Virus record (IMG/VR): IMGVR_UViG_3300048586_000134
Location: 25,703 to 89,702 of that record
Direction: 5' to 3' (one strand)
Length of the DNA stretch: 64,000 nt
Source: a virus
Taxonomy: Duplodnaviria > Heunggongvirae > Uroviricota > Caudoviricetes
The translations under genes and the position numbers were made by a program. Every line of letters starts with the position of its first letter. Within the stretch, counting starts at the first letter, position 1. The notes under the pieces are model-generated. The model was not told where the DNA came from, ran no database searches, and saw only the letters and a list, made by a program, of their open reading frames with translations. Shown piece after piece: positions 62,236 through 63,039 of the stretch.

Positions 62236-62426
62236 TTCGGTTTGGCGAACGTTGTTCGCTTATCCTAACGTTGTTCGGAGTAGGGTACAGTGTTAGGTAG
62301 AGTGGATTGTTTAGTTCTTTACTACTTACTTTATTTCTGCGCGTAGCTATCATAACGTGCGTCACTTACACAACGTTAGCGACCGAACGTTAGCTATGCT
62401 AAGCAAACTATCGCATCTCTCATTGT

Positions 62427-62435
62427 TGATCCACA
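62427..62435 (+). promoter_or_regulatory. DnaA-box-like 9-mer TGATCCACA (1 mismatch)
   Basis: Lies in ttgttgatccacaac, which is related to the 61759 element in the opposite orientation. Confidence 0.3.
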
Positions 62436-62776
62436 ACTACACAATCGCATTGTTTACGAGTGATAACAAATGAGCGCTAACTATGTACTTGATCGACAAC
62501 TCAACAATCGTTTTTACCGCGAACGTACGCATATAGTTACGAGCCGTTACCCCTCAAATCCGCTTCATTAGCACGGATGTTCTGGGGACGCTAGTGGTCA
62601 AAAAATTCGCACTCCATTTTCCCAAAGGGCAAAAAATATTCAGCCAGGGGACAGTCCAGCAGCCGTTCCAGAGAGGCAAAAATGACCCAAAATGGTCGAG
62701 TTGCGAATTTGACAACTTTTGAGGCTTCTGAGGCCAAAATCTGCGGAAATCTCGGGCTTTTTCGGCTTTTGGAGGG

Positions 62777-62798
62777 TTTTCCACAAAAATGTGGATAA
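62777..62798. promoter_or_regulatory. inverted pair of DnaA boxes TTTTCCACA-AAAA-TGTGGATAA (second is a perfect TTATCCACA consensus)
   Basis: Read directly. Confidence 0.5.
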
Positions 62799-62799
62799 A

Positions 62800-62875
62800 C
62801 TACTGTCATTTTGCGTCGAATCACTGTCGTTTTGTCGAAATCGGGCTGATTTACTGTCATTTAGGACGAAATTGA
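62800..62875. repeat. AT-rich direct repeats ACTGTCATTTTG / ACTGTCGTTTTG / ACTGTCATTTAG (x3), a DUE/iteron-like region between DnaA boxes
   Basis: Read directly. Spacing is ~25 bp. Confidence 0.6.
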
Positions 62876-62884
62876 AGCGCTGGT

Positions 62885-62893
62885 TGTGGATAA
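62885..62893 (-). promoter_or_regulatory. perfect DnaA box TTATCCACA (plus-strand tgtggataa)
   Basis: Read directly. Confidence 0.5.
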
Positions 62894-63039
62894 CGTGCGA
62901 TTCTAAGCAAAAATTGAGTAAGAGAGATGATGGAAGGGCGCTCTACCGCCGCCCCTTCCCTCTCTCGCTTCGCTCGATTCACCCTTCTCTGGCGGTCGTC
63001 CCGACTCTCAAACTCTCGAAGGATTAATGCCTGCGTGTG

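What the first reader, a model, noticed from the sequence alone, without database searches (positions are those of the whole stretch)
62420..62900. Candidate replication origin: DnaA boxes flanking AT-rich iterons
Two perfect TTATCCACA DnaA boxes (62790-62798 and 62885-62893, both in the same orientation) and an inverted partner TTTTCCACA (62777-62785) bracket three AT-rich 12-mers ACTGTC(A/G)TTT(T/A)G. One-mismatch boxes (TGATCCACA) lie at 62427 and 61759 inside TTGTTGA..TCAACAA inverted repeats. This is oriC-like architecture, with DnaA boxes next to a DNA-unwinding element. It sits in the divergent non-coding hub while the genome encodes its own DnaB-like helicase, DnaD-domain loader and primase-polymerase. 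The phage may recruit host DnaA to initiate, or titrate it.
Basis: partly seen in the sequence, partly recalled or inferred. Interest (0 to 1): 0.65.

Follow-up and report, generated by a model that had tools for sequence, protein, structure and literature searches.

The report
DnaA-box cluster in phage non-coding hub
A novel large phage carries a real, non-random cluster of binding sites for the bacterial replication initiator DnaA inside a 2.9 kb gene-free control region. It may be part of the phage's replication origin, but this is unproven, and the only known relative with the same layout lacks these sites.

Summary
The sequence features are real. Two perfect TTATCCACA boxes lie on the minus strand at 62790 and 62885. 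A consensus-compliant TTTTCCACA sits 4 bp from the first. Three phased direct repeats lie between the boxes. The clustering never arose in 300 simulations.

The head-to-head pair with a 4-bp spacer recurs in at least 120 bacterial species. There it sits in box-dense regions, often just upstream of dnaA, so it is a genuine DnaA-box arrangement.

The cluster sits in a 2.87 kb non-coding hub between about 45 leftward early promoters and the rightward promoter of a Ro60 gene, near the cumulative GC-skew minimum (60828, 2 kb to its left).

Origin function is not shown:
- The "AT-rich iterons" are only 57% A+T. The least stable DNA is 140-340 bp further right.
- The same repeat triplet recurs at 53.46 kb.
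- No DnaA-trio array and no adjacent initiator gene were found.
- The one relative with the same architecture has no DnaA boxes, but nine copies of a different motif.
- T5-like phages carry DnaA boxes in a repeat-rich non-coding region that is not their origin.
- A rival origin site exists at 36.0-36.26 kb.

Verdict: a plausible plasmid-like origin or DnaA-recruitment module, at moderate confidence.

The parts
60459..63333 (.). 2.87 kb non-coding hub between the last minus-strand early gene (ATG at 60458) and the Ro60/TROVE gene (ATG at 63334)
   Evidence: No ORF here has coding potential: per-codon score is at most 0.08, against 0.12-0.25 for real genes. It has no Rfam family and no tRNA. It is dense in direct and inverted repeats.
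62777..62785 (+). DnaA box TTTTCCACA, which fits TTWTNCACA; head-to-head partner of the next box across a 4-bp spacer
   Evidence: The same pair arrangement occurs in at least 120 bacterial species, in box-dense regions often upstream of dnaA.
62790..62798 (-). Perfect DnaA box TTATCCACA
62885..62893 (-). Perfect DnaA box TTATCCACA, in the same orientation as the box at 62790, 95 bp away centre to centre (about 9 helical turns)
62802..62813 (+). Direct repeat 1, ACTGTCATTTTG. The unit extends to about 21 nt, with GTCGAAT following.
62823..62834 (+). Direct repeat 2, ACTGTCGTTTTG, followed by TCGAAAT
62853..62864 (+). Direct repeat 3, ACTGTCATTTAG, followed by GACGAAAT
62423..62446 (-). 24-nt element holding the near-palindrome TTGTTGATCCACAA and the one-mismatch box TGATCCACA (62427-62435, +)
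   Evidence: (I5)
61748..61771 (+). 24-nt element GATTGTTGACTTGTGGATCAACAA holding the one-mismatch box TGATCCACA (61759-61767, -)
   Evidence: (I5, I7, I8)
62489..62509 (-). Third, more diverged copy of the same element (GATTGTTGAGTTGTCGATCAA)
   Evidence: I7
62932..62959 (.). G+C-rich hairpin (GGAAGGGCG / CGCCCCTTCC) between the boxes and the A+T-rich block; no T-run follows it
   Evidence: fold z = -3.0 for 62861-62980
63035..63234 (.). Least stable duplex of the whole 64 kb window (62-65% A+T), with 6 ACTAGA repeats and 9 CTAG; the best unwinding-element candidate
   Evidence: D7
63238..63273 (+). Promoter of the second class (ATGTCGC-N13-CCGCATATGATAGTG) that drives the Ro60 gene
   Evidence: Five co-oriented copies in the window, all with the same two blocks
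63334..64000 (+). Ro60/TROVE gene, cut by the end of the window
   Evidence: PF05731, E = 1.3e-18
53459..53511 (+). Second triplet of ACTGTCGTT(T/A) (starts 53459, 53481, 53502; spacings 22 and 21 bp), in a 50-nt gap between two minus-strand early genes
34563..35279 (-). Winged-helix protein directly upstream of and abutting the helicase gene; candidate phage origin-binding protein or replisome organiser, and the possible 'DnaD-like' protein
   Evidence: No Pfam hit itself. Homologues hit HTH_24, MarR, DnaD_N (2 of 30) and RepL (1 of 30). The C-terminal motif ERDLGRGLSPFE matches the DnaD-like protein 2zc2 only at E = 0.45.
33604..34563 (-). DnaB-family helicase, C-terminal RecA-like domain only (319 aa)
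   Evidence: PF03796, E = 4.6e-56; phage_DnaB model positions 151-416

Best explanation
The 62777-62893 cluster is a functional docking site for the host initiator DnaA, built into the phage's non-coding control hub. It most likely forms one half of a plasmid-like (iteron plus DnaA-box) replication initiation region.

Proposed sequence of events:
1. Host DnaA occupies the head-to-head pair at 62777/62790 and the in-phase box at 62885.
2. A phage DNA-binding protein occupies the three repeats of about 21 bp between them. The best candidate is the winged-helix, weakly DnaD-like protein encoded beside the helicase gene.
3. The nucleoprotein complex, perhaps helped by the weaker TGATCCACA elements 0.4-1.1 kb to the left, melts the least stable DNA of the region at 63035-63234.
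4. The phage's DnaB-like helicase, AEP primase and PolA take over. Later replication is probably recombination-driven, using Erf, SSB and endonuclease VII.

Shown: the sites exist, are non-random, match a genuine bacterial DnaA-box arrangement, lie in non-coding and promoter-poor DNA near the strand and skew switch (minimum 60828, 2 kb to the left), and lie next to the window's most meltable DNA.

Inferred: that DnaA binds in vivo, which protein binds the repeats, where melting occurs, and that replication starts here at all.
For: - Two perfect boxes and one consensus box lie within 117 bp. There are 4 perfect boxes against 0.31 expected, and no simulation reached this clustering.
- The perfect copies share only the 9-mer, so the conserved unit is the DnaA box itself.
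- TTTTCCACA-N4-TGTGGATAA occurs in at least 120 bacterial species, against 17-45 expected. Neighbouring box density there is 11 times higher than elsewhere, and 17 of 120 sites sit 0.2-1.2 kb from a dnaA-like ORF.
- The hub is non-coding and lies between about 45 leftward sigma70-type promoters and a rightward promoter.
- The cumulative G-C minimum is at 60828 and the curve is flat across the hub.
- The repeats are spaced 21 and 30 bp, and the perfect boxes are 95 bp apart, so they are in helical phase.
- The least stable DNA of the window starts 140 bp to the right.
- The phage has a helicase, a primase, a polymerase and SSB, but no recognisable DnaA, Rep or lambda-O-type initiator in about 65 ORFs scanned.
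- It does have a winged-helix protein next to the helicase.
- Iteron plasmids such as RK2, P1 and pSC101 combine DnaA boxes, 17-22 bp iterons and an unwinding element (PMC4980987).
Against: - The only relative with the same Ro-hub-early-gene architecture (L008) has no DnaA box, even allowing one mismatch, in its 2.9 kb hub. Instead it has nine copies of TTGGACA[CG]AT.
- T5-like phages hold perfect DnaA boxes in a repeat-rich untranslated region, while their origins map elsewhere.
- The repeats between the boxes are only 57% A+T. Their core recurs as a triplet inside an early operon at 53.46 kb, which suggests an operator.
- No DnaA-trio array is next to any box, by inspection.
- No initiator gene is adjacent; the winged-helix gene is 27 kb away.
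- The skew switch is confounded with gene orientation.
- The weaker boxes belong to a larger TTGT[GT]GA element family that could be sites for a phage protein.
- A promoter plus a 54-bp perfect palindrome in A+T-rich DNA beside the replication genes is a rival origin.
- The host is unknown.
Confidence: 0.35

Rival explanations
1. DnaA binds here, but the site is not an origin. In this reading the hub works like the untranslated first-step-transfer region of T5-like phages, where conserved DnaA boxes are proposed to tether incoming DNA to membrane-bound DnaA. Alternatively the boxes act as a DnaA sink or switch that diverts the host initiator or couples phage expression to it.
For: - T5 has two perfect same-orientation boxes 73 bp apart in a divergent non-coding gap, plus paired boxes in the injection stop signal. 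These are conserved in 25 T5-like phages, whose origins map near the genome centre.
- The window's hub is likewise a large untranslated region full of direct repeats, inverted repeats and palindromes.
- It lies next to a block of tiny early genes, each with a strong host-type promoter.
- The source contig of about 128 kb is T5-sized.
- Two more perfect boxes lie elsewhere in the window, at 4340 and 17959.
Against: - No protein similarity to T5-like phages was seen. PolA is at best 30% identical to any GenBank phage, and no A1 or A2 family hit was found.
- The box pair here is inverted with a 4-bp spacer, not tandem with 3 bp.
- A terminal repeat cannot be seen in the window.
- The T5 mechanism is itself only a hypothesis in a preprint.
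- The relative L008 lacks boxes.
Confidence: 0.2
2. The 'DnaA boxes' are binding sites for a phage-encoded protein, and their identity to the DnaA consensus is partly coincidental. Each lineage's hub would carry its own short motif for its own regulator or initiator. Here that motif would be TTGT[GT]GA(T), of which TGTGGATAA is one variant. In L008 it would be TTGGACA[CG]AT.
For: - L008's hub has nine hub-restricted copies of a different 10-mer in both orientations and no DnaA box.
- In the window, 7 of 25 TTGTTGA copies and 5 TGTGGA sites lie in the hub, and they overlap in the near-palindrome TTGTTGATCCACAA.
- The pair at 62777-62798 is a 6-4-6 palindrome suited to a dimeric helix-turn-helix protein.
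- The phage encodes winged-helix and LexA-type DNA-binding proteins.
Against: - Two sites are exact 9 of 9 matches, and a third fits the strict consensus.
- Their shared sequence stops exactly at the 9-mer borders.
- The TGTGGA sites all continue with (T/A)(A/C)A, whereas the TTGTTGA sites do not.
- The same inverted 4-bp-spaced pair is a common bacterial DnaA-box arrangement, with variable spacer sequence.
Confidence: 0.25
3. The boxes are a chance or neutral by-product of a repeat-rich, somewhat A+T-rich non-coding region and have no function of their own.
For: - The hub is compositionally unusual and full of repeats, so local k-mer statistics differ from the genome average.
- The boxes are not conserved in L008.
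Against: - Clustering this strong never arose in 300 simulations.
- There are 4 perfect boxes against 0.31 expected.
- The arrangement is the same as in bacterial dnaA-upstream regions.
Confidence: 0.1

Closest known systems
Iteron-plasmid theta origins that use host DnaA (RK2 oriV, P1 oriR, pSC101 ori)
   Same: DnaA boxes flank a short array of phased direct repeats. pSC101 also has three iterons, and plasmid iterons are 17-22 bp. An A+T-rich stretch and a G+C-rich stretch lie nearby. A winged-helix protein is the expected repeat binder (PMC4980987).
   Different: - No rep gene lies next to the repeats.
- Only a 10-12 nt core of the repeat is conserved.
- The A+T-rich block is 140 bp from the last box rather than abutting it.
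- The element sits in a phage of about 128 kb with a lytic-type gene set and its own helicase, primase and polymerase.
- There is no sequence similarity to any plasmid.
DnaA-box clusters in the untranslated first-step-transfer / injection-stop region of T5-like phages (Davison, bioRxiv 10.1101/866236)
   Same: A large phage carries perfect DnaA boxes inside a kilobase-scale untranslated region packed with direct repeats, inverted repeats and palindromes. That region lies next to small early genes with strong host-type promoters. In T5, two perfect same-orientation boxes lie in a divergent promoter gap.
   Different: - T5 boxes are tandem pairs with 3-bp spacers at fixed positions of long inverted repeats, and they are conserved across the family.
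- Here there is one inverted pair with a 4-bp spacer and one single box, and they are absent from the one architectural relative.
- There is no protein homology to T5.
Bacterial oriC / dnaA-promoter DnaA-box clusters
   Same: The consensus boxes are identical. The very arrangement TTTTCCACA-N4-TGTGGATAA is found in many bacterial phyla, in box-dense DNA and often just upstream of dnaA.
   Different: Only three strong boxes are present. There is no DnaA-trio array, no dnaA or dnaN neighbour, and the unwinding candidate is not adjacent.
Origins in the non-coding gap between divergent early and late transcription units of lytic phages (for example lactococcal phage c2; recalled from memory, not checked here)
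   Same: The position is between divergent transcription units, in a repeat-rich non-coding region.
   Different: To my knowledge those origins do not rely on DnaA boxes. No comparison was run.

Membership tests
oriC-type origin (DnaA boxes + unwinding element) | Cluster of several consensus DnaA boxes | tested here: met
   Three boxes fitting TTWTNCACA lie within 117 bp, and six boxes with at most one mismatch lie within 1.2 kb. No such cluster arose in 300 simulations.
oriC-type origin (DnaA boxes + unwinding element) | A+T-rich unwinding element directly beside the boxes | tested here: inconclusive
   The stretch between the boxes is 57% A+T (95th percentile). The window's least stable DNA is 140-340 bp to the right, beyond a G+C-rich hairpin.
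oriC-type origin (DnaA boxes + unwinding element) | DnaA-trio array (repeated 3'-GAT-5' type trinucleotides) next to a box, as in the Bacillus-type basal unwinding system | tested here: not met
   Inspection of the flanks of all three boxes on both strands shows at most one or two CTA or TAG triplets and no array. No formal scan was run.
oriC-type origin (DnaA boxes + unwinding element) | Strand-composition (GC-skew) switch at the site | tested here: inconclusive
   The cumulative G-C minimum is at 60828, 2 kb to the left of the boxes, and the curve is flat across the hub. This coincides with the switch of coding strand, so it cannot be assigned to replication.
oriC-type origin (DnaA boxes + unwinding element) | DnaA binding and DnaA-dependent unwinding or initiation | not testable with these tools
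   This needs gel-shift or footprinting assays, P1 or KMnO4 probing, or marker-frequency analysis.
Iteron-plasmid origin with DnaA boxes | Array of direct repeats (iterons, 17-22 bp) in helical phase | tested here: met
   There are three repeats with starts 21 and 30 bp apart and a unit of about 21 nt, but only the 10-12 nt core is well conserved.
Iteron-plasmid origin with DnaA boxes | Initiator (Rep) gene adjacent to the iterons | tested here: not met
   There is no coding ORF within 60459-63333. The nearest candidate winged-helix protein is at 34563-35279. No Rep_3-type domain was found in about 65 ORFs.
Iteron-plasmid origin with DnaA boxes | Second iteron cluster used for copy control | tested here: inconclusive
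   A second triplet of the core exists at 53459-53511, but it sits between two co-transcribed early genes, which fits an operator as well.
Iteron-plasmid origin with DnaA boxes | Autonomous replication of the fragment | not testable with these tools
   This needs a plasmid origin assay in the (unknown) host.
T5-type DnaA-box region (first-step-transfer / injection stop) | Kilobase-scale untranslated region dense in repeats, inverted repeats and palindromes, next to early genes with strong host-type promoters | tested here: met
T5-type DnaA-box region (first-step-transfer / injection stop) | Boxes in tandem pairs 3 bp apart, placed at the borders of long inverted repeats | tested here: not met
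   Here there is one inverted pair with a 4-bp spacer plus a single box. T5 has tandem pairs at 9437/9449 and 9498/9510.
T5-type DnaA-box region (first-step-transfer / injection stop) | Location inside a long terminal repeat; A1/A2 transfer proteins | tested here: inconclusive
   A terminal repeat cannot be seen in a 64 kb slice. No A1 or A2 family hit was found among the early ORFs scanned, but not all small ORFs were scanned.
T5-type DnaA-box region (first-step-transfer / injection stop) | Conservation of the boxes across related phages | tested here: not met
   L008, which has the same architecture but is only a distant relative, has no box with at most one mismatch in its hub. Closer relatives could not be reached.

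The most novel reading that the evidence does not exclude
A large, lytic-type phage of an uncultured host has captured host-type DnaA boxes and combines them with its own repeat-binding, winged-helix, DnaD-like adaptor to load a phage DnaB-type helicase. This would be a hybrid host-DnaA plus phage-replisome initiation pathway. The same boxes, amplified with phage copy number, could also drain DnaA from the host chromosome.
Probability: 0.2. Interest if true: 0.65.

Novelty: new variant of a known kind. Interest (0 to 1): 0.45.

Why it matters
How large virulent phages with their own replisome choose a start site is unknown for most lineages. Dependence on the host initiator DnaA is documented mainly for plasmids and plasmid-prophages. 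If the reading is correct, it would have three consequences:
- It would give a concrete and easily testable origin for a whole uncultured phage family. Relatives with 55-67% lysin identity sit on contigs of 30-133 kb.
- It would show a host-phage hybrid initiation route.
- It would suggest a way for a phage to interfere with host chromosome initiation.

If instead the T5-like reading holds, DnaA-box-bearing untranslated control regions would extend beyond the T5 family. Either way, the 2.9 kb hub is a compact target for experiments.

Tried and rejected
1. A Y RNA or other non-coding RNA gene next to the Ro60 gene. Rfam gave nothing at the gathering threshold or at E up to 10. ARAGORN found no tRNA. 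There is no unusual RNA structure in 62420-62900. The GNCGAA motifs in the repeats do not complete the Ro-binding motif of PMC4201824. Rejected.

2. A hidden small gene. The 89-aa ORF at 62591-62860 (-) and the 102-aa ORF at 62719-63027 (+) have non-coding codon scores. Rejected.

3. A sigma70-type promoter at the boxes. None was found.

4. Horizontal capture from a plasmid or a known phage. There is no blastn match.

5. Comparative test in close relatives. The window's genome is not in IMG/VR, the JGI contig collection or the GTDB genomes. Exact-protein look-ups failed, or returned only a 4.7 kb twin contig that is 99.98% identical.

6. Other Ro60 loci. In 35 loci, none has a comparable non-coding region or DnaA boxes upstream. 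L017, L099, L100 and L223 are unrelated, and L221 has a tRNA array there.

7. Iterons inside or beside the winged-helix/helicase genes, as in lambda- or SPP1-type origins. None was found.

8. Host identification. There are only weak hints of Thermomicrobiales from two MAG-derived names.
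Full report
**What the window is**

The 64 kb window is a slice of a novel tailed phage.
- The plus strand at 1-5559 encodes tail-like proteins and a 668-aa glucosaminidase/amidase lysin.
- A single minus-strand block runs from 5.7 to 60.46 kb. It encodes a class II ribonucleotide reductase, ThyX, SSB, endonuclease VII, an AEP primase with a PriCT domain, PolA, a DnaB-family helicase, Erf, NAMPT and many small early genes.
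- A TROVE/Ro60 gene starts at 63334 on the plus strand and is cut by the end of the window.

Nothing in GenBank phages resembles this genome at the DNA level, and PolA is at most 30% identical to any phage there. A protein 100% identical to one window protein is recorded on a JGI contig of 127,895 bp, so the genome is at least about 128 kb.

**The observation**

All sequence features are at the stated coordinates.
- Perfect TTATCCACA lies at 62790-62798 and 62885-62893 on the minus strand.
- TTTTCCACA lies at 62777-62785 on the plus strand. It faces the first perfect box across a 4-bp spacer and fits the strict TTWTNCACA consensus.
- Three ACTGTC(A/G)TTT(T/A)G repeats start at 62802, 62823 and 62853. 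Their unit is really about 21 nt, because each is followed by G(T/A)CGAA(A/T).
- TGATCCACA lies at 62427 and 61759.

The statistics hold up. There are four perfect boxes in the window against 0.31 expected. Six of the 16 boxes with at most one mismatch lie between 61717 and 62893. In 300 first-order Markov simulations, no 1.2 kb stretch held six boxes and no 150 bp stretch held three. The two perfect copies share nothing beyond the 9-mer.

**The surroundings**

The cluster lies in a 2.87 kb stretch, 60459-63333, with no ORF of coding quality, no tRNA and no Rfam family.

To the left, the minus strand carries about 45 strong promoters of the form cTTGACA-N17-TGnTAnAnT, roughly one per small early gene. 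The last good one is at 60545 and weaker ones are at 61089 and 61275.

To the right, at 63238-63273, is one of five copies of a second promoter class, ATGTCGC-N13-sCGCATATGATAGTr. All five are co-oriented with their genes. The boxes therefore sit in a promoter-poor gap between divergent transcription units.

The hub also contains:
- the 21-24 nt elements that carry the TGATCCACA sites;
- seven TTGTTGA copies out of 25 in the window;
- six Z-DNA-prone alternating purine-pyrimidine tracts of 20-35 bp;
- a CTAG/ACTAGA-rich block at 63035-63234.

**Is it an unwinding element?**

The stretch between the boxes is 57% A+T, the 95th percentile for its size. The box cluster as a whole is 61% A+T. The least stable duplex of the entire window is 63035-63234, which starts 140 bp to the right of the last box, beyond a G+C-rich hairpin at 62932-62959.

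The repeats themselves are therefore better read as protein-binding iterons than as the unwinding element. Their core also occurs as a phased triplet at 53459-53511, in a 50-nt gap between two co-transcribed early genes. That placement is what an operator would look like.

I found no array of DnaA-trio-type trinucleotides beside any box, by inspecting.

**GC skew**

The cumulative G-C curve reaches its minimum at 60828 and is flat across the hub to 64000. However, it coincides exactly with the end of the minus-strand gene block, so it cannot separate replication from transcription effects.

**Are these genuine DnaA-type sites?**

About 17 hits are expected for uniform composition, and at most about 45 for A+T-rich genomes.
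- Around those hits there are 2.7 further consensus boxes per kb within 400 bp, against 0.25 per kb elsewhere in the same loci. The spacers are variable.
- In 17 of the 120 loci, a strict motif test finds a dnaA-like ORF 0.2-1.2 kb away.

The head-to-head pair with a 4-bp spacer is thus a recurrent bacterial DnaA-box arrangement, typical of dnaA-upstream or oriC DNA. This makes DnaA binding to the phage sites likely if the host has a canonical DnaA.

**The phage's own initiation proteins**

The helicase (a C-terminal RecA-like domain only), the AEP primase, PolA and SSB are confirmed. No DnaA, Rep or lambda-O type domain was found in about 65 ORFs.

The 238-aa protein whose gene abuts the helicase gene (34563-35279) has no Pfam hit itself. 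Its family has 42 representatives and shows an N-terminal winged helix: HTH_24 and MarR hits, DnaD_N in 2 of 30 homologues and RepL in 1 of 30. Its C-terminal motif ERDLGRGLSPFE aligns with the DnaD-like protein 2zc2 only at E = 0.45.

There are no iterons within or beside this gene.

**Evidence from a relative**

One protein near the hub (55230-56027) has a 45%-identical homologue on a set of JGI and NCBI contigs. In the 31 kb contig L008 the architecture is the same. A Ro60 gene, 51% identical, is separated from a block of small early genes by about 2.9 kb of non-coding DNA.

The two hubs do not align. L008's hub has no DnaA box, even allowing one mismatch. Instead it holds nine copies of TTGGACA[CG]AT in both orientations, restricted to the hub and absent from the window.

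The hub as an organ is therefore conserved, but the DnaA boxes are not. Each lineage has its own high-copy short motif. This is the strongest argument that the boxes could be sites for a phage protein, or a lineage-specific acquisition.

Closer relatives exist: lysin homologues at 55-67% identity sit on contigs up to 96 kb. Their hubs were out of reach of the tools. Thirty-five other Ro60 loci have no such hub.

**A precedent that cuts the other way**

T5-like phages carry DnaA boxes in the large, repeat-rich untranslated part of their terminal repeat. These boxes are conserved in 25 genomes and are proposed to stop DNA injection by binding membrane DnaA. T5 origins map near the genome centre (10.1101/866236).

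In T5 itself I find perfect boxes at 6121 and 6194, in the same orientation, in a divergent promoter gap. Tandem pairs lie at 9437/9449 and 9498/9510.

The window's hub resembles this in kind. It differs in box arrangement, shows no protein homology, and the boxes are not conserved in the relative.

**A rival origin site**

The gap 35966-36261 lies just upstream of the Erf / winged-helix / helicase operon. It contains a class-2 promoter and a 54-bp perfect palindrome (36041-36094), and it ranks among the three least stable regions of the window.

**Conclusion**

My estimates are:
- About 0.35: the cluster is a functional DnaA-docking module forming part of a plasmid-like initiation region, with DnaA boxes plus phage-protein iterons and melting in the adjacent 63.04-63.23 kb block.
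- About 0.2: DnaA binds without origin function, as T5-like tethering, titration or regulation.
- About 0.25: the sites belong to a phage protein.
- About 0.1: chance.

None of these can be settled without binding assays, read-depth or marker-frequency data, or the hubs of the closer relatives.

Noticed in passing
window 63334-64000 (+); L008 2337-3947: The gene just right of the hub is a Ro60/TROVE homologue (PF05731, E = 1.3e-18). No Y RNA or YrlA was detected in the 2.9 kb upstream, at Rfam E up to 10. The Ro60-hub-early-gene synteny is shared with the distant relative L008 but with none of 35 other Ro60 loci.
   Followed up: partly
window 61497-61531, 61534-61558, 61618-61641, 61685-61704, 61798-61821, 62202-62232: There are six G+C-rich alternating purine-pyrimidine tracts of 20-35 bp, of the GCGTGCGTATGCGCGTGC type, which are prone to Z-DNA. 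Only one other run of at least 14 exists in the window, and simulated sequences reach at most 21. They also pair into long hairpins, for example 62164-62278.
   Followed up: partly
window 43000-60620, minus strand: About 45 strong sigma70-type promoters, (GACTAC)TTGACA-N17-TGnTAnAnT, occur roughly one per small early gene. TTGACA occurs 93 times on the minus strand against 25 on the plus strand.
   Followed up: partly
window 63238-63273 (+); 19381-19395, 24355-24369, 36107-36121, 43081-43095 (-): A second promoter-like class, ATGTCGC-N13-sCGCATATGATAGTr, is present in five copies, each co-oriented with its downstream genes. These are probably middle or late promoters that need a phage factor.
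   Followed up: partly
window 35966-36261: A 54-bp perfect palindrome (36041-36094) lies just downstream of a class-2 promoter, in one of the least stable regions of the window, upstream of the Erf / winged-helix / DnaB operon. It is an alternative origin candidate or a 5' hairpin of the transcript.
   Followed up: partly
window 53459-53511: A second triplet of ACTGTCGTT(T/A), spaced 22 and 21 bp, lies in a 50-nt gap between two minus-strand early genes. The third copy overlaps a possible GTG start codon.
   Followed up: partly
window 60461-60640: This is the most strongly structured part of the hub (fold z about -7.5 on both strands). It is a series of short hairpins around the promoter at 60545 and the 5' leader of the first early gene.
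   Followed up: no
window 63043-63221 and the whole hub: CTAG is rare in the window (88 copies), but 17 are in the hub and 9 of those lie within 63043-63221, as ACTAGAGAC-type repeats. GATC is frequent in the window (401 copies), but only 4 are in the hub, 3 of them inside the TTGT[GT]GATC[AC]ACAA elements.
   Followed up: no
L008 5599-7363: The relative's hub carries nine copies of TTGGACA[CG]AT in both orientations plus five copies of GTCAAGGTGAG. An uncalled HNH endonuclease ORF sits at 4110-4460, between the hub and the Ro60 gene.
   Followed up: partly
window 33604-34563 (-): The DnaB-family helicase is only 319 aa. It matches positions 151-416 of the phage DnaB model, so it lacks the N-terminal primase-interaction domain.
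   Followed up: no
window 4340-4348 (+), 17959-17967 (+): Two further perfect TTATCCACA boxes lie inside coding regions. The one at 4338-4350 shares flanking bases with both hub boxes (CG-TTATCCACA-TT).
   Followed up: no
window 55230-56027 (-): This early protein has a helix-hairpin-helix, DNA-glycosylase-like motif (GIGEKTAAM). JGI names homologues as 3-methyladenine glycosylase or endonuclease III. It is one of the few proteins shared with the L008 phage group.
   Followed up: no
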